IMG/VR virus record: IMGVR_UViG_3300018476_000016
Location: 1 to 55,110 of that record
From: a virus
Taxonomy: Duplodnaviria; Caudoviricetes
Direction: 5' to 3' (one strand)
DNA: 55,110 bases
Below are positions 1-55,110 of this stretch, piece by piece; within the stretch, counting starts at the first letter, position 1; each line of letters starts with the position of its first letter. Made by a program: the position numbers and the translations under genes. A model generated the notes under the pieces. It was not told the origin of the DNA, did no database searches, and saw only the letters and a program-made list of their open reading frames with translations.

Positions 1-123
1 GAATCAAAGACGAGACGGGTAGACGGAGAGAACCATGCGACATTGGTGGATCCGAGCCGCCCAGGGGGGAGGGCACCTTGTTCCGGGGGAGGGGTGGGGG
101 GTAAGGTGGGGGGATGAGGAGAG
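1..123 (+). repeat. Left terminal inverted repeat (123 bp)
   Basis: 1-123 is the exact reverse complement of 54988-55110; identity stops after ...GGGATGAGGAGAG. Confidence 0.97.
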
Positions 124-2420: not shown

Positions 2421-2707
2421 GCACGGCGGAGTGGCGGCAGGCGTCCGAGGTGATCCGTGAGGCGCACAAGCGTGGCGCGGACTCGGCCGAGGACCTTGAC
2501 CGTCGCGGGATGCTGCTCACCGCACGACGCGGTAAGCAGATCCAGGCCAACACGCTGCACCGGTTCGCCGAGGAGCTACGCCAGTGGCGCCCGGACGAAC
2601 TGCTACGCAAGGTCCACACCGGGCCGTGGACGCCAGCGGAGATGCTGACCGCTGTGCACATGTTCCTGGACGAGTACATGCAGGCACTGAGCGAGGAGGA
2701 GACGTGA
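2414..2707 (+). CDS. Hypothetical protein
   Basis: Coupled ORF with phage codon bias. Confidence 0.65.
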   Translation: MLSTAEWRQASEVIREAHKRGADSAEDLDRRGMLLTARRGKQIQANTLHRFAEELRQWRPDELLRKVHTGPWTPAEMLTAVHMFLDEYMQALSEEET

Positions 2708-9863: not shown

Positions 9864-9907
9864 CAGGGTACGATAGAACCACACCCCTCCCTAACGGAAG
9901 GAAGTAC

Positions 9908-10772: not shown

Positions 10773-10846
10773 TGCAGCGTGGAGCAGTCCGGTAGCTCGT
10801 TGGGCTCATAACCCAGAGGTCGCCAGTTCGAATCTGGTCGCTGCCA
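10773..10846 (+). tRNA. tRNA-Met(CAT), initiator type
   Basis: Cloverleaf; anticodon arm TGGG-CTCATAA-CCCA with three G-C pairs; TTCGAATC T-loop; 1:72 mismatch; CCA not encoded. Confidence 0.95.
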
Positions 10847-10890
10847 CTGTGCAGCCGTTAGCGCGGATGTTGGTTGGTGGAGTGGCACAC

Positions 10891-10922
10891 GAACCCCCCG
10901 ATGTTGCAGCGTCGGGGGGTTC
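10891..10922 (+). terminator. Intrinsic terminator hairpin
   Basis: GAACCCCCCGATG / CGTCGGGGGGTTC followed by TTC. Confidence 0.75.
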
Positions 10923-10928
10923 TTCATG

Positions 10929-10971
10929 AACCGACCCCCGACACCCAGCCAGAAGGTGTCGGGGGTCGGTT
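10929..10971 (-). terminator. Intrinsic terminator hairpin for the convergent gene
   Basis: 17-bp perfect stem AACCGACCCCCGACACC / GGTGTCGGGGGTCGGTT. Confidence 0.75.
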
Positions 10972-10979
10972 GTCAGGGA

Positions 10980-11333
10980 CTAGGCGCGGTAGATCGAGGA
11001 GATCTGGTTGAACTGCTCCGCGCTGGTCGGTCCACCCGGGGCGCCAGGACCCCAACTGCCACTCACTCCGGTGCAGTTGGCACCGTTGTACGTGTAGAAC
11101 GTGGAAGCCGTCCGGTTGCGACCCGACTCCGCGTTGTTGTTCAGCGTGCCCGAGATGTTCAGGCAGTGGTCCACGGCGGGGAGGTACTCGCCACGGGTGC
11201 CAGTGCCGTTGCCGGTCCACAGACAGAACCGGCCACTCGTGCAGTCGCTGAGCGACGCGTTCGCTGGTGCGACCATGATGCCCAGCCCGAGGGCTGCCAT
11301 GAACGCCACAGCAAGGATCTTGACAGTACGCAT
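10980..11333 (-). CDS. Secreted peptidase inhibitor I36-like protein (paralogue of 9908-10267)
   Basis: Signal peptide ending PANA; CTSGRFCLWTGNGTG, DHCLN, NNAESGRN, TFYTYNG, GSWGP. Confidence 0.8.
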   Translation of the reverse strand: MRTVKILAVAFMAALGLGIMVAPANASLSDCTSGRFCLWTGNGTGTRGEYLPAVDHCLNISGTLNNNAESGRNRTASTFYTYNGANCTGVSGSWGPGAPGGPTSAEQFNQISSIYRA

Positions 11334-11477
11334 GTGCGTCCTTCCTTGTGGGTGTACCTCCCAGGGTAGTCAATGTGGACCCCCGTACACCACCCCTCCC
11401 CTTGGTCATGTTGACTCCATCATGTACCGTGGATTGCGAGGGAGGGGGCCCCCTCCCAAGAATGGAGGAGCACCTAC

Positions 11478-45449: not shown

Positions 45450-46880
45450 CTACCCGAGTAGCTTGGACAGGTCGTAGAAGGACTGGTTGAGGCCCAGGTC
45501 GTACTGGCTCGGGTCGGCGATGCGCATCTCACGCTTCTCGCCCAGTATGAGTTGCAGGCAGGCATGGACCATGGCGTCCATGCGGTCCGGGGACTCCCGG
45601 GTCGACTGGGGGTCGTACAGGACCATCTGGTCCTCAAGTTCGGGGAACTCGCCTACCATGTGCAGTCTTCCCTGCTCACCGCGCATGGCGACCGGCTCGG
45701 CCCGCGTCTTCTTGCCGTGGGAGGCGTGGACCGGCTTCATCGGCGGGGTGGTGTTGCGGGGGAAGGTCCCCTGGTCGACCATCTCCAGGTACGCGTCCTG
45801 GAGGACCTCCTGTAGGTACCGCTTGCCGAGGTTCTCCTCATAGGCCAGCATGTCCGCGCCGAACTCTGCCACGGCCCGCCACGCGGCCAGGGCTGCCTGG
45901 CGACCCGACCCGGCGATGGTGCGGTCGGCCAGGACGTACAGGTGCCCGTCGGCTGCGCGGCACGCCACCACGATGCCGGTCTCCGCGTCGTTGCCGGTCA
46001 GGTTGGGGTCCATGCCCACCACGGTGGACACGATGGCGTCGGGAACATCGGTGACCCGGTTCTTGAGGATGTCGGATCGGTTGAACAGGCCACCACCGGA
46101 CAGTTCGATCAACTTGCCGTACAGTTCCTGCTCCCCGAGCAGGGTGCCGTGGTAGCGCTTCTTCAGTTCGTTGAGCACGTGCGCGGACAGGTTCGTGGAG
46201 TTGTCGAACGTGGACCCGGTAATGACATGTACTGTCCCGTCATCACGTGTCAGCCACTCCTGTAGCAACTTGATGGGCTTGGGGGTGGTGGTGACGAACG
46301 CCCGTGGGTGGTCCCCGATGAGGTCGGCACGCAGGGACGGCATCAGCCCCTCGTACCAGGTGGCGTCCGGCTTGACCCACTTGGCGATCTCGTCGCAGAG
46401 GATCCCGGCTGCGTTGTAGCCACGTCCGGTGTCCTCGTCGTCCGCACCCTCCAGGTAGATCTTCTGGCCGTCCGGGAACAGGAACATGGGCCGGGGGGTC
46501 TGCTTGTACCGGTGGTCGATGCGACGACGGATGAGGACGTTGCGGATGCCCGAGGGACCGTCGGCGTTGATGGTCCGGGCGTCGGACAGGGTGTCGGCCA
46601 CCACGAGCCACTCGGTGGGGATCCCGTGCCGGTCGAAGGGGTGCTGCTGGACCCTCTCCACGATCCACTCGGAACCTGACCTTGACTTCCCGGCACCGCG
46701 CCCGGCCATGTACAGGTAGATGAGTTCCGGGCCAGAGGTGGGACGCTGTTCGGGGCGTGCGGTGAACCACCACTCGCCCCGGTTCATCTCCTCGATGACC
46801 TGCTCAGGCAGGGATGCCAGCAACGCAAGCCGCTCCTGGCGTGGCAGGATGGCGATCTGCTGTGCGATGGACAGTCCCAT
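45450..46880 (-). CDS. Terminase large subunit
   Basis: Walker A AGRGAGKS, Walker B LCDE, TTTP, nuclease VGMDP and SPDRMDA. Confidence 0.95.
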   Translation of the reverse strand: MGLSIAQQIAILPRQERLALLASLPEQVIEEMNRGEWWFTARPEQRPTSGPELIYLYMAGRGAGKSRSGSEWIVERVQQHPFDRHGIPTEWLVVADTLSDARTINADGPSGIRNVLIRRRIDHRYKQTPRPMFLFPDGQKIYLEGADDEDTGRGYNAAGILCDEIAKWVKPDATWYEGLMPSLRADLIGDHPRAFVTTTPKPIKLLQEWLTRDDGTVHVITGSTFDNSTNLSAHVLNELKKRYHGTLLGEQELYGKLIELSGGGLFNRSDILKNRVTDVPDAIVSTVVGMDPNLTGNDAETGIVVACRAADGHLYVLADRTIAGSGRQAALAAWRAVAEFGADMLAYEENLGKRYLQEVLQDAYLEMVDQGTFPRNTTPPMKPVHASHGKKTRAEPVAMRGEQGRLHMVGEFPELEDQMVLYDPQSTRESPDRMDAMVHACLQLILGEKREMRIADPSQYDLGLNQSFYDLSKLLG

Positions 46881-46902
46881 GGAAGATCAATGTACTCGAC
46901 CC

Positions 46903-46933
46903 TTGCGGACCGGGGGGAGGGTGTGCTTATAAT
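46903..46933 (+). promoter_or_regulatory. Strong rightward promoter divergent from the terminase
   Basis: TTGCGG-N19-TATAAT. Confidence 0.6.
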
Positions 46934-46939
46934 TGGGGG

Positions 46940-47123
46940 GCCAGGCACCGTCGATGACACGCTCAGCAGCTACGTCACACGGTGGGCCTGGCACCTAACT
47001 TGATACTCGCAGGGCACGACCTTGGGCCTGCACGCTGTTTGCTGATCCCTTCCGGCGTGTTGGCTGATGAGGGGAGCCCTGCGAAGGACCCCCTCGGAGT
47101 TGCCGCTCTGAGGGGGTCCTTTT
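46940..47123 (+). ncRNA. Candidate ~185-nt structured small RNA
   Basis: Promoter, two long stem-loops (46940-46992, 47007-47084), intrinsic terminator; no credible ORF. Confidence 0.6.
47084..47123 (+). terminator. Rho-independent terminator
   Basis: AAGGACCCCCTCGGAG / CTCTGAGGGGGTCCTT followed by TTAT. Confidence 0.8.
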
Positions 47124-47153
47124 ATGTCGGAGGGTAGGGATAGCGTGGTCAAC

Positions 47154-47561
47154 ATGGTGGACAGCGAGACGGACCCGGTCGTCCTGGGGCGCAGTGTCGT
47201 GGTCAACGGAGCCCTGGGGGAGTTGCGCAGCACCCTGAAGTGGTCGTGCAACGCGATGGCTGAGGCCCTGGCCGTGTCACCCATCACCTACGGCAAGTGG
47301 GAGCGGCGCCCAGACACGAGGCTGTGGACTGGGACGGCCAGGCGTGTGGGGGACTTCTACCGCCGTGCCGCCCAGGAATTAGTGGATGTTGAACTCATCG
47401 ATGAGTTTACACCTTTCTATAAGGTGGCCATGTACCTGGGTGTGCCGCAGGAGATGCTGGTCAAGGGCTACCGGCAGGGCCGGTACGAGGGGGAGGACTG
47501 GGGAGTGCTGGGACTGTGGATGCACCGTGACGACCTGGCCGAGTTGACCGGTCGCCGATGA
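47154..47561 (+). CDS. XRE-type HTH DNA-binding protein
   Basis: LR..LKWS...MAEALAVSPITYGKWE; second HTH-like segment VAMYLGVP. Confidence 0.78.
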   Translation: MVDSETDPVVLGRSVVVNGALGELRSTLKWSCNAMAEALAVSPITYGKWERRPDTRLWTGTARRVGDFYRRAAQELVDVELIDEFTPFYKVAMYLGVPQEMLVKGYRQGRYEGEDWGVLGLWMHRDDLAELTGRR

Positions 47562-48400
47562 GCAAGAGACCCCTCACGTGTGTGGCCTGCGGGGAGCCGC
47601 TGGTCCAGTACGACCCGAACGTGTTCGTCCACCCGGCCTGCGACCCGTTCAACGTGGCCGACGAGTCCGAGGCGGACTGGGTCAAGGCCGAGATGACCAA
47701 GATCATCAAGTGGGCGGACTCCCACTCGCCTCGCTCGTTGCAGACCAACCTGGGACCATCCGAGCTTGGCAGTCCCTGCGACCGGCGCCTGGGCTACCGG
47801 ATGGCTGGGACGCCAGAGTGCAACAACAACCGTGACCCGTGGGCGGCGATCGTGGGCACGGCGATCCACAAGTGGTTGGAGGACGCCACCAACCGGTGGT
47901 GCACGGCCCACGCCAACACGGACTGGGTGACGGAGAAGGGCATCGAGATCTCCGAGGTCGTGTCCTCGCACCCGGACCTGTTCAACGTCCCCAAGGGCAT
48001 GGTGATCGACCACAAGAGTGTGAGCGCGGACCGGATGAAGGAGGTCCGCAAGGACGGCCCACCGATCGGCCACCAGGTCCAGGTGCACACGTACGGGTAC
48101 GCGTACGAGAGGCTCGGGTACAAGGTCAACACGGTGGGCCTGGCGTTCTACCCCCGGTCAGGGTGGTTGCGGCACATGTTCGTGTGGACGGCACCGTACG
48201 ACCGGAACGTTGCCGAACGTGCCCTTGCCAGACCTCCCTCCGTTGCGGCACAATTGGTGGGCCTAGGGGTGCTGGACAACCCGCACCGCTGGGAGCAGGT
48301 CCCCGCCGTCCCGGGCAACGACTGCGGGTGGTGTCCGTGGTACAACCCCAACAGGACCGCCGAGCAGGGAGCGAGTGAGCAGGGATGTCCAGGGACATGA
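47558..48400 (+). CDS. Cas4-like/RecB PD-(D/E)xK exonuclease
   Basis: LGPSELG.PC.R, GTAIH, PD...IDHK, QVHTYG, C.WCPW. Confidence 0.88.
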   Translation: MSKRPLTCVACGEPLVQYDPNVFVHPACDPFNVADESEADWVKAEMTKIIKWADSHSPRSLQTNLGPSELGSPCDRRLGYRMAGTPECNNNRDPWAAIVGTAIHKWLEDATNRWCTAHANTDWVTEKGIEISEVVSSHPDLFNVPKGMVIDHKSVSADRMKEVRKDGPPIGHQVQVHTYGYAYERLGYKVNTVGLAFYPRSGWLRHMFVWTAPYDRNVAERALARPPSVAAQLVGLGVLDNPHRWEQVPAVPGNDCGWCPWYNPNRTAEQGASEQGCPGT

Positions 48401-49689: not shown

Positions 49690-49844
49690 CGCTACGGGGC
49701 GGTCGACACTGGGCCGTTCAGGGTGGATGATGGGGACTCCGGACAGGGACCCCCAAGCCTCCCCGGAAAAGCGAGAGCCCCCCGCGCCAACAGGGGGCAT
49801 CTCAGATGTTCAACTTCAATGGCGATCAACCAGGAAGGGATCTA

Positions 49845-54907: not shown

Positions 54908-54997
54908 TCATTTCCCACTCACTCTGACCACGGTGGCGACGTAGCAGCCCACGAGGACCACTGCCACCAACAGCATCAGTACGAAGACTCTCCTCAT
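54908..54997 (-). CDS. Small membrane peptide starting inside the right terminal repeat
   Basis: MRRVFVLMLLVAVVLVGCYVATVVRVSGK; uses the mirror image of ATG 114. Confidence 0.5.
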   Translation of the reverse strand: MRRVFVLMLLVAVVLVGCYVATVVRVSGK

Positions 54998-55110
54998 CCC
55001 CCCACCTTACCCCCCACCCCTCCCCCGGAACAAGGTGCCCTCCCCCCTGGGCGGCTCGGATCCACCAATGTCGCATGGTTCTCTCCGTCTACCCGTCTCG
55101 TCTTTGATTC
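54988..55110 (-). repeat. Right terminal inverted repeat (123 bp)
   Basis: Exact reverse complement of 1-123. Confidence 0.97.

What the first reader, a model, noticed from the sequence alone, without database searches (positions are those of the whole stretch)
46903..47123. Stand-alone ~185-nt structured RNA transcribed back-to-back with the terminase
Seen: a TATAAT promoter; stem-loop 1 (GCCAGGC-ACCGT...ACGGT-GG-GCCTGGC with inner TGAC/GTCA); stem-loop 2 (TCGCAGGGC...GCCCTGCGA with inner CACGCTG/CGGCGTG, whose loop TCCCTTC can also pair with downstream GAGGGGA); then a U-tailed terminator. The next gene seems to have its own leaderless -10 (TAGCGT-N7-ATG). I do not recognise the family. Inference: an abundant phage sRNA (protein decoy or anti-defence) or an attenuator. 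More speculatively a packaging-associated RNA, given the inverted ends and the absence of a recognisable small terminase.
Basis: partly seen in the sequence, partly recalled or inferred. Interest (0 to 1): 0.75.

Follow-up and report, generated by a model that had tools for sequence, protein, structure and literature searches.

The report
Orphan small RNA gene beside terminase
An uncultured soil phage carries what looks like a ~185-base non-coding RNA gene with its own promoter and terminator, in a slot where related phages carry tRNAs or other small RNAs; what this RNA does is unknown.

Summary
The described features are all present at 46903-47123: a TATAAT box, two stem-loops and a strong U-tailed hairpin. 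No Rfam family matches. About 160 related phage contigs show that this divergent terminase/early-gene spacer is a variable cargo slot of about 0 to 2,700 nt. Its frame is conserved. A G-rich+TANNNT promoter motif (P1) comes first, then variable cargo, then a homologous terminator with compensatory changes. The terminator runs into a fixed TGTCN-N11-TANNNT promoter motif for the next gene. Between P1 and the terminator, relatives carry nothing, two tRNA-Leu genes or other hairpin RNAs. Nine carry, on the other strand, a covarying scaffold RNA with tRNA-like inserts. The window's cargo (SL1+SL2) therefore sits in a unit that is very probably transcribed and ends before the next gene's own promoter. 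SL2 and the terminator favour the + strand (G·U pairs). They are invariant in four near-identical environmental contigs whose flanking genes differ at about 6% of third codon positions. SL1 is replaced wholesale in those contigs. SL2 has no homologue outside this lineage, so covariation cannot be tested, and no RNA data exist. Most likely it is an accessory stand-alone phage sRNA of unknown function. A packaging RNA is rejected; a lambda-6S-like terminated leader remains a rival.

The parts
46885..46894 (-). TerL promoter-like -10 (TACATT) plus GATC, 8 nt before the TerL start codon (46880-46878); TerL appears leaderless
   Evidence: The same TAnnnTGATCAc+ATG/GTG arrangement is seen by eye in most of the 67 relatives' TerL upstream sequences listed.
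46903..46933 (+). P1: G-rich box GGGGGGAGGG (46912-46921) and TATAAT (46928-46933); predicted start about 46940
   Evidence: the same G-rich+TANNNT motif stands 6 nt before leaderless ATGs in both terminal repeats (85-107 and its mirror). By eye it also precedes the scaffold-RNA genes and the tRNA cassette of L034. Identical in L051 and conserved in L003. No canonical -35.
46940..46992 (+). SL1, the 5' stem-loop; a hypervariable module
   Evidence: Replaced by a different, 13-nt longer sequence in L051 and in contigs of runs X2, X3, X6. Other hairpins occupy this place in L003 and L044. No strand preference (-25.5 on +, -29.6 on -).
46992..47006 (+). Linker CACCTAACTTGATAC; possible second promoter P2 (-10 TAACTT 46996-47001, start about 47008 at the base of SL2)
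   Evidence: Resembles TerL promoters of relatives such as cacctaacatgatcgc. A 16-nt match is also in L044. Invariant in L051, X2, X3, X4, X6. Promoter activity is inferred only.
47007..47084 (+). SL2, a long irregular hairpin with the C/U-rich apical loop UUUGCUGAUCCCUUC (47038-47052)
   Evidence: It has 4 G.U pairs on the + strand and none on the - strand, -41.1 against -32.1 kcal/mol. No difference in four environmental contigs. No homologue elsewhere.
47085..47123 (+). Intrinsic terminator: 16-bp hairpin plus UUUUAU
   Evidence: 2 G.U pairs, + strand only. Homologous hairpin+T-run in 17 relatives: 10 consensus pairs, 7 with compensatory double changes.
47125..47156 (+). Promoter motif of the next gene (TGTCG-N11-TAGCGT, 47125-47146) and its start ATG 47154 (alternative GTG 47145)
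   Evidence: TGTCN-N11-TANNNT within 160 nt of orfX in 32 of 51 spacers; 0 with spacers of 8, 9, 10, 12 or 13 nt, 1 each with 14 and 15. 26 of 51 have a T-run directly before it. One search gives the start-codon context in relatives.
49833..49842 (+). Lead only: GGAAGGGAUC, Shine-Dalgarno region of the primase-helicase gene (ATG 49845), perfectly complementary to SL2 loop bases 47044-47053
   Evidence: the only sense-strand complement of 10 nt or more to the loop in the genome. Shuffle test p about 0.06. Relatives without SL2 have similar ribosome-binding sites.

Best explanation
The segment is an autonomous small-RNA transcription unit, an 'RNA moron', in a phage of a probable actinobacterial host. 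A G-rich+TANNNT promoter (P1) lies back-to-back with the leaderless terminase promoter and starts an RNA at about 46940. The RNA consists of a variable 5' hairpin (SL1), a linker that may itself be a second promoter giving a ~116-nt co-terminal RNA, an invariant long hairpin (SL2) with a C/U-rich loop, and a strong intrinsic terminator ending at about 47123. The next gene (an HTH protein) then starts from its own conserved promoter motif. The promoter-terminator frame is ancestral in this phage family and works as an expression slot for RNA cargo; SL1+SL2 is this lineage's private cargo. I take the RNA to be a non-essential, trans-acting RNA: a base-pairing regulator using the SL2 loop, for example on the primase-helicase ribosome-binding site, or a protein decoy. 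Shown: the structure, its strand bias, the conserved frame, the terminator covariation, the RNA cargo in relatives, and the invariance of SL2. Inferred: transcription, the RNA's ends, early timing, and any trans action.
For: Structure is stronger than chance. SL2 and the terminator carry 6 G.U pairs that exist only on the + strand, which is 9 and 5 kcal/mol more stable there; this argues for RNA rather than a DNA palindrome. P1 matches the motif that precedes leaderless ORFs in both terminal repeats and, by eye, the scaffold-RNA and tRNA cassettes of relatives. A looser form of the motif lies within 120 nt of the TerL start in 14 of 51 spacers. The terminator is homologous across the window and 17 relatives, with 7 of 10 pairs showing compensatory changes. 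It is followed by TGTCN-N11-TANNNT in 32 of 51 spacers with a strictly fixed spacer, so the downstream gene has its own promoter. In L032/L034/L035 two tRNA-Leu genes lie on the same strand between the TerL start and the terminator, so this interval is expressed as RNA in relatives. The spacer varies from about 0 to 2,700 nt in 50 distinct relatives, which marks the cargo as accessory. In contigs of four runs from four studies, positions 46991-47122 show no substitution. X2 differs from the window at 11 TerL positions in 481 nt, 10 of them third codon positions by my arithmetic. At that rate about 7 changes would be expected in 132 neutral bases. The segment is non-coding: the SL1 swap changes length by 13 nt, and the small ORFs are not kept.
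Against: No RNA run holds the phage, so no transcript, end or abundance is shown. SL2 has no homologue outside its own lineage, so there is no covariation for the core of the claim. Its invariance could reflect recent shared ancestry or recombination, since the neighbouring SL1 was clearly exchanged. The SL1 variant of L051 folds no better than shuffles (z -1.2, 23/200), as does the L003 5' region (z -1.3). The consensus promoter/terminator scan flagged nothing here. Relatives such as L061, L122 and L142 have the promoter-terminator frame with only a ~35-nt hairpin, so the frame may have a role of its own and the RNA may be a by-product. Target prediction is weak (p about 0.06; no top rank).
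Confidence: 0.55

Rival explanations
1. Terminated leader of an antitermination-controlled operon, like lambda PR'-6S RNA-tR' (recalled). P1 fires constitutively and stops at the terminator unless a phage factor, or the RNA itself as in HK022 put (recalled), makes RNA polymerase read through into the HTH/nuclease/primase operon. The ~185-nt RNA is then a cis element or a by-product.
For: The promoter-terminator pair just upstream of the early operon is conserved even where the cargo is only a ~35-nt hairpin (L061, L122, L142). Terminator homology and covariation. Two stem-loops between a promoter and a terminator resemble put in outline.
Against: The downstream gene keeps its own fixed-spacing promoter motif immediately after the terminator. 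The cargo differs completely among relatives and includes tRNA genes, and SL1 is swapped between near-identical phages. Both are odd for a cis-acting recognition RNA. I saw no convincing antiterminator pairing; the only alternative is a 6-bp GAGGGG/CCCCUC helix against a 16-bp terminator (read).
Confidence: 0.2
2. No function for the RNA. SL1 and SL2 are hairpin filler or recombination debris trapped between an old promoter and an insulating terminator that protects the early promoter from upstream transcription.
For: SL2 is an orphan. SL1 is freely replaceable. The SL1 3' arm shares 16 identical bases with the nuclease gene at 48129-48144, which looks like a recombination scar. The slot is highly plastic.
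Against: There are zero substitutions in 132 nt of linker, SL2 and terminator in four contigs, while flanking third codon positions differ at about 6%. G.U pairs are placed so that only the + strand RNA folds fully. SL2 begins exactly where a transcript from the linker motif would start.
Confidence: 0.12
3. A DNA-level site (replication origin, packaging site or operator set) whose inverted repeats only look like RNA hairpins.
For: It lies between divergent promoters next to the terminase gene. SL1 folds slightly better on the - strand, and the - strand overall has z -5.6.
Against: It is absent from most relatives, so it is not an essential cis site. SL2 and the terminator need G.U pairs, which are mismatches in DNA. 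It has no repeats or iterons, and it is not repeated elsewhere in the genome except for one 16-mer.
Confidence: 0.04
4. A packaging RNA like phi29 pRNA, bound to the portal.
For: Only position next to TerL, a size of about 185 nt, and a genome with inverted terminal repeats.
Against: TerL has both Terminase_6N and the nuclease domain Terminase_6C, unlike the phi29 ATPase (recalled). 15 of 50 relatives with 63-77% identical TerL have 100 nt or less here, and none outside the lineage has SL2. No Rfam family matches at E<=10.
Confidence: 0.01

Closest known systems
Phage 'morons': independent transcription units inserted between conserved genes (PMC3594210; abstract seen in the search listing)
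   Same: It has its own promoter motif and its own terminator. It is inserted between two conserved genes, and it is present in some relatives and absent or different in others.
   Different: The cargo is a non-coding RNA, not a protein gene. The promoter-terminator frame itself is conserved and only the insert varies.
[quoted passage not shown]
   Same: An actinobacteriophage setting. A non-coding stretch directly downstream of an early promoter and upstream of early genes. No conserved ORF, and function unknown.
   Different: No sequence similarity: blastn against 50,697 phage records found nothing. Those RNAs have RNA-seq and Northern support and come from a ~500-nt region at a genome end. 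Here nothing is shown at the RNA level.
Lambda PR' 6S RNA with Q antitermination, and HK022 put RNA (both recalled, no call)
   Same: A promoter, a short structured RNA of about 190 nt and a strong terminator placed in front of an operon. put consists of two stem-loops.
   Different: The operon here is the early/replication one and keeps its own promoter motif. No Q-like or qut-like feature was tested, and the cargo is not conserved among relatives.
Antisense immunity RNAs P1/P7 c4 and P4 CI (recalled, no call)
   Same: A small stable RNA encoded upstream in the same direction as its target, with loops pairing to a ribosome-binding site. Here the SL2 loop is complementary to the primase-helicase Shine-Dalgarno region over 10 nt.
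   Different: There is a single 10-nt match of marginal significance, no second target site, and no evidence of processing.
Scaffold RNA with tRNA or permuted tRNA-like inserts in the same slot of 9 relatives; weakly YrlA-like (Rfam RF02553, 16.2 bits against a gathering score of 69. Chen et al. 2014, PMC4201824, passages read)
   Same: The same intergenic slot, the same G-rich+TANNNT promoter type, a terminator, and a modular build with a swappable internal part.
   Different: It lies on the opposite strand. It has clear covariation (8 of 23 pairs) and tRNA-like modules. It is not present in the window. No Ro60/TROVE gene in the window or in four relatives.

Membership tests
Any Rfam 15 family | Covariance-model score at or above the family's gathering score | tested here: not met
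   Whole window at gathering thresholds: only tRNA at 10773-10846. Region 46700-47400 at E<=10: ctRNA_pGA1 at 22.2 bits (gathering 45), aligned to the terminator hairpin only, and sR40 at 13.5 bits.
phi29-type packaging RNA (pRNA) | Match to the described pRNA family, if the Rfam library holds one (its name and presence are recalled, not checked) | tested here: not met
   No match of any family at E<=10 other than the two listed.
phi29-type packaging RNA (pRNA) | An essential part of the packaging motor, hence conserved wherever the motor is conserved | tested here: not met
   15 of 50 relatives have 100 nt or less in the spacer. SL2 occurs only in the window's own lineage.
phi29-type packaging RNA (pRNA) | Works with a packaging ATPase that lacks a nuclease domain, on protein-primed DNA (recalled) | tested here: not met
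   TerL has Terminase_6N (E 7e-17) and Terminase_6C (E 5e-6). The genome does have inverted terminal repeats. A terminal protein or B-family polymerase was not sought.
Intrinsic (Rho-independent) terminator | G+C-rich hairpin directly followed by a U-run on the transcribed strand | tested here: met
   16 pairs, a 4-nt loop, then UUUUAU; -32.3 kcal/mol, z -7.5; top of the genome-wide scan. The simple consensus scan did not list it.
Intrinsic (Rho-independent) terminator | The structure, rather than the sequence, is kept in relatives | tested here: met
   18 sequences, 10 consensus pairs, 7 with compensatory double changes; T-run and TGTC conserved. The MAFFT alignment is rough, and 1 to 6 sequences per pair are broken or gapped.
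Moron (autonomous accessory transcription unit) | Own promoter and own terminator between genes that are adjacent in relatives | tested here: inconclusive
   Promoter motif, terminator and patchy presence are all seen in sequence. Promoter activity is not testable here, and no RNA data exist.
Actinobacterial 6C-type sRNA (C-rich loops) | Match to the Rfam 6C model, if held (recalled); two hairpins with C-rich loops | tested here: not met
   No such hit. Only the SL2 loop is C/U-rich (GAUCCCUUCC).
Cis-acting transcription attenuator or riboswitch | An alternative antiterminator helix competing with the terminator, and a downstream gene that depends on read-through | tested here: not met
   The only alternative is a 6-bp helix, read by eye. 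The downstream gene keeps the family's TGTCN-N11-TANNNT motif. No riboswitch family matches.
YrlA / bacterial Y RNA (considered for the relatives' scaffold RNA, not for the window's RNA) | Model score; a tRNA-like module; a neighbouring or co-resident Ro60 (TROVE) gene | tested here: not met
   16.2 bits against a gathering score of 69. tRNA-like modules are present. No TROVE match in the window or in 4 relatives' records that are 91-100% complete.

The most novel reading that the evidence does not exclude
The conserved promoter-terminator frame beside the terminase gene is a plug-in expression slot in which a family of soil actinophages swaps RNA cargo: tRNAs, permuted tRNA-like scaffold RNAs and orphan hairpin RNAs such as SL1+SL2. 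The wholesale replacement of SL1 between otherwise 98% identical phages would then reflect diversifying selection on an RNA decoy or specificity module aimed at host defences that target tRNA or other RNA.
Probability: 0.15. Interest if true: 0.75.

Novelty: new member of a known kind. Interest (0 to 1): 0.45.

Why it matters
Phage-encoded small RNAs are known mainly from a few model phages, and almost none from uncultured soil actinophages. If this RNA is real, it adds an unclassified RNA. More usefully, it points to a defined genomic slot, with a conserved promoter, terminator and downstream promoter, where this phage family keeps exchangeable RNA genes. That makes RNA cargo predictable from position and gives a compact cassette (46881-47160) that can be tested in a laboratory actinobacterium without culturing the phage. 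If the RNA is only a terminated leader, the value shifts to the unusual fixed-spacing promoter architecture.

Tried and rejected
- RNA evidence: no RNA holder was listed for the phage. Only DNA contigs could be laid, so expression is untested.
- Homologue collection for covariation of SL2 found nothing beyond the window's own lineage:
  - blastn 'distant' against phages and plasmids: no match.
  - blastn, word size 7, against 183 fetched loci: only L051/L090/L143 (one contig) and the promoter part of L003/L105.
  - Exact-pattern scans of IMG/VR: chance matches apart from the contigs of L051, L044 and L003.
  - A covariance model of SL2 over 91 sources / 550 kb and over 9 pattern hits: nothing else above E=1 except the reverse strand of the same element.
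- TerL searches gave 77 IMG/VR loci, 80 metagenome loci and 5 distant genome loci in sphingomonads at 28-38% identity. No prophage relative was found, so no host genome could be searched.
- Target search: duplex scans of the SL1 loop, linker, SL2 loop and SL2 bulge against both strands gave no outlier at a gene start. The 10-nt loop/primase-RBS match is marginal.
- The L003 cargo has no second copy or antisense partner in its own genome.
- The SL1-type hairpins are not dispersed repeats.
- A hammerhead-like CUGAUGAG at 47063-47070 was considered and dropped: no Rfam hit and no GAAA or stem II.
- Small ORFs 46890-47003, 46982-47137 and the 14-codon ATG 46954 were rejected as coding: no SD, a frame broken by the SL1 swap, and one runs through the terminator.
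- Ro60/TROVE was sought and not found.
- Supplementary files of the papers were not available. Those of PMC4201824 list phage YrlA RNAs and could bear on the scaffold RNA.

Full report
**What the window is.**

The window is a complete 55,110-bp virus record, 65.6% G+C, with ~120-bp inverted terminal repeats.

- Genes on the - strand from 46880 leftward are structural. They begin with a two-domain large terminase (45450-46880), followed by a DUF1360 protein and the portal.
- Genes on the + strand to the right are an HTH-like protein ('orfX'), a PD-(D/E)XK nuclease, an HNH endonuclease, an unassigned protein and a PrimPol-D5 primase-helicase.
- Portal and primase find their best relatives among actinobacteriophages, so the host is probably an actinobacterium.
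- The finding occupies the 243-nt divergent spacer 46881-47123.

**Observation.**

- The + strand RNA 46935-47125 folds at -106 kcal/mol, z -6.4.
- By part: SL1 z -3.0, SL2 z -3.1, terminator z -7.5.
- Genome-wide, the candidate ranks 5th of 2,390 windows of 184 nt by raw energy, despite a lower G+C than those above it.
- Its terminator is the strongest hairpin followed by a run of 4 or more T.
- The simple consensus scan flagged neither a promoter nor a terminator here.
- The reverse strand also folds well (z -5.6).
- However, SL2 and the terminator contain 4 and 2 G.U pairs on the + strand and none on the - strand. They are 9 and 5 kcal/mol more stable on the + strand. SL1 shows no such bias.
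- Rfam has nothing: only a tRNA-Met elsewhere at gathering thresholds, and a sub-threshold ctRNA_pGA1 alignment to the terminator hairpin.

**Relatives.**

TerL searches returned 77 IMG/VR loci, 80 metagenome loci and 5 distant genome loci. TerL and orfX are divergent neighbours in 50 distinct spacers, whose length runs from about 0 to about 2,700 nt. Fifteen of the 50 are 100 nt or less. The spacer is therefore a cargo slot. Its frame is nevertheless conserved:

- **(i) TerL promoter.** TerL is preceded by TAnnnTGATCAc directly before ATG or GTG, that is, a leaderless promoter (in the window TACATT at 46894-46889).
- **(ii) P1 motif.** Next to it, pointing the other way, is a G-rich box followed by TANNNT. 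In the window this is P1 (46912-46933).
  - The same motif stands 6 nt before leaderless ATGs in both terminal repeats.
  - By eye it also precedes the scaffold-RNA genes of relatives and the tRNA cassette of L034.
  - A looser form lies within 120 nt of the TerL start in 14 of 51 spacers.
- **(iii) Terminator.** A terminator hairpin with a T-run precedes orfX. Across the window and 17 relatives it has 10 consensus pairs, 7 of them with compensatory double changes.
- **(iv) orfX promoter motif.** The T-run merges into TGTCN-N11-TANNNT. This motif is present within 160 nt of orfX in 32 of 51 spacers. The count is 0 for spacers of 8, 9, 10, 12 or 13 nt.
  - The window's copy is 47125-47146, followed by ATG 47154.
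  - A start at GTG 47145 behind an SD-like G-run is an alternative I could not exclude.

**What sits between P1 and the terminator in relatives.**

- Only a ~35-nt hairpin in L061, L122 and L142.
- Two tRNA-Leu genes on the orfX strand in L032, L034 and L035.
- A ~330-nt multi-hairpin RNA behind a P1 that is 90% identical in L003, the closest distinct relative at 83% TerL identity.
- ORFs in some others, for example L043/L046 and L044.
- ARAGORN finds a tRNA in 6 of the 50 spacers.
- Nine of the 50 carry, on the TerL strand, a scaffold RNA. Its 5' and 3' arms enclose a tRNA, a circularly permuted tRNA-like module, or a short hairpin. RNAalifold on 8 sequences gives 23 pairs, 8 of them with compensatory double changes.

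The interval is therefore an RNA-gene slot in this family. The window's SL1+SL2 lies exactly where relatives keep genes that must be transcribed.

**The window's own cargo.**

SL2 has no homologue outside its lineage. This holds for phage and plasmid collections, 183 loci, a covariance model over 550 kb and pattern scans. The one related contig is L051, whose TerL is 99% identical but interrupted by an intein. It is identical from the linker to the terminator and in P1, but SL1 is replaced by a different sequence 13 nt longer.

Contigs from four DNA runs of four studies show the same picture:

- All differences within the spacer fall in 46939-46990.
- There are none in 46881-46938 or in 46991-47122.
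- X2 differs from the window at 11 TerL positions in 481 nt, 10 of them third codon positions by my arithmetic, and at 8 positions in the orfX and next-gene part.
- At about 6% per neutral site, about 7 changes would be expected in the 132-nt linker, SL2 and terminator. None is seen.
- This suggests purifying selection, although a recent exchange of the segment could give the same picture.

SL1 behaves as a swappable module, and the evidence for structure in it is mixed:

- The window version has z -3.0 and the L044 version z -4.3.
- The L051 version has z -1.2 and the L003 5' region z -1.3.

The linker CACCTAACTTGATAC resembles TerL-type promoters of relatives and recurs in L044. It may be a second promoter that starts an RNA at the base of SL2.

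**Mechanism.**

The best-supported reading is an autonomous, accessory RNA unit. Its function rests on inference.

- The SL2 apical loop (GAUCCCUUCC) is C/U-rich.
- Its only sense-strand complement of 10 nt or more in the genome is the Shine-Dalgarno region of the primase-helicase gene, 2 nt before ATG 49845.
- A shuffle test over 257 generously defined start windows gives p about 0.06.
- Relatives without SL2 have similar ribosome-binding sites.
- A wider duplex scan did not rank this site highly.

This is a lead, not a result.

**Rivals.**

- **Lambda-6S-like terminated leader.** It is favoured by the conservation of the bare promoter-terminator frame. It is disfavoured by the downstream gene's own promoter motif and by the unrelated cargo in relatives.
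- **Non-functional filler.** It is favoured by the orphan status of SL2 and the plasticity of the slot. It is disfavoured by the invariance of SL2 and the strand-specific G.U pairs.
- **DNA-level site.** It is disfavoured because most relatives lack the element and because SL2 and the terminator need G.U pairs.
- **pRNA-like packaging RNA.** It is effectively excluded: TerL has a nuclease domain, many relatives lack any such RNA, and no Rfam family matches.

**Comparison with the known.**

The unit works like a moron (PMC3594210, abstract in the listing), but with RNA cargo. Its closest biological precedent is the set of abundant early non-coding RNAs of cluster A mycobacteriophages (PMC5712189, passages read). 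It shares no sequence with them. It is not a member of any Rfam family. I rate it a new member of a known kind, a phage stand-alone sRNA candidate, with moderate interest. The conserved slot and the scaffold RNA of relatives are the more unusual observations.

Noticed in passing
L009:2718-2871, L173:784-937, L004:943-1091, L162:750-853, L154:1742-1895, L017:2853-2935, L107:1601-1735, L008:314-448, L005:2739-2878 (all + strand of the locus, the TerL strand): A modular scaffold RNA in the same slot of 9 of 50 relatives. Conserved arms (5' GUUCAGGUCCCAGCCGAUGGGUGCUUACACGC ... UCAGCCUCCAUCACUCGGGUCCUGAAC 3') enclose a 19-90-nt module: an ordinary tRNA, a circularly permuted tRNA-like (T arm, closed acceptor stem, D arm, anticodon arm) or a short hairpin. 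It has 23 consensus pairs, 8 with compensatory changes. The only Rfam hit is a weak YrlA match (16 bits), and these phages have no Ro60 gene. It is not in the window.
   Followed up: partly
window 47125-47146 and the orfX-proximal 160 nt of 31 relatives' spacers: A promoter-like motif TGTCN-N11-TANNNT with a strictly fixed 11-nt spacer (32 of 51 spacers; 0 at 8, 9, 10, 12 or 13 nt). This is far shorter than the 17-bp sigma-70 spacing, and the motif is usually fused to the T-run of the preceding terminator. It may be a phage-specific promoter class or an operator-promoter unit.
   Followed up: partly
window 1-122 and 54989-55110; also the record of L003 (G003): ~120-bp inverted terminal repeats, each carrying the G-rich+TAAGGT motif 6 nt before an inward-facing leaderless ATG. 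A relative's complete record is also classed as having inverted terminal repeats. The genome encodes ParB-like and PrimPol-D5 proteins. No terminal protein or B-family polymerase was looked for.
   Followed up: no
L051:1810-2637 (also L061, L067 and the metagenome copies L143, L144, L151, L160, L161): The TerL of the near-identical phage is interrupted in frame by 276 codons at GILC|DEIAKW (the Walker B region). The insert has Cys at the N-terminal splice junction, ends ...VHN and is followed by Cys: an intein. The window's TerL lacks it.
   Followed up: partly
window 48129-48144 and 46977-46992: A 16-nt exact direct repeat (19 of 20 with one indel) between the 3' arm of SL1 and the coding sequence of the PD-(D/E)XK nuclease gene (BLAST E 0.01). 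It may be a recombination scar or chance. The L003 cargo has no such repeat in its own genome.
   Followed up: partly
window 10773-10975: tRNA-Met(CAT) is followed by two strong hairpins (10893-10925 and 10931-10975). They look like convergent terminators between the tRNA and the - strand ORF that ends near 10980.
   Followed up: partly
window 9870-9891 (- strand) and 11380-11460: Further copies of the G-rich/C-rich box next to TANNNT in short intergenic regions (GGGAGGGGTGTGGTTCTATCGT on the - strand at 9891-9870; CCCCTCCCC and GGGAGGGGG around 11390-11450). The box appears to be a general promoter-associated element of this phage.
   Followed up: no
window 49730-49770: A hairpin plus TTTT, oriented for the - strand (-23.9 kcal/mol), lies in the spacer just upstream of the primase-helicase gene although both neighbouring genes are on the + strand. 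Its role is unexplained.
   Followed up: no
L009, about 2540-2640 (- strand of the locus), and L005, about 2580-2660: Besides the scaffold RNA, these relatives appear to have a short + (orfX-strand) unit: a TAGACT -10 box, one or two hairpins, and the conserved terminator. The P1-to-terminator unit may therefore coexist with TerL-strand cargo.
   Followed up: no
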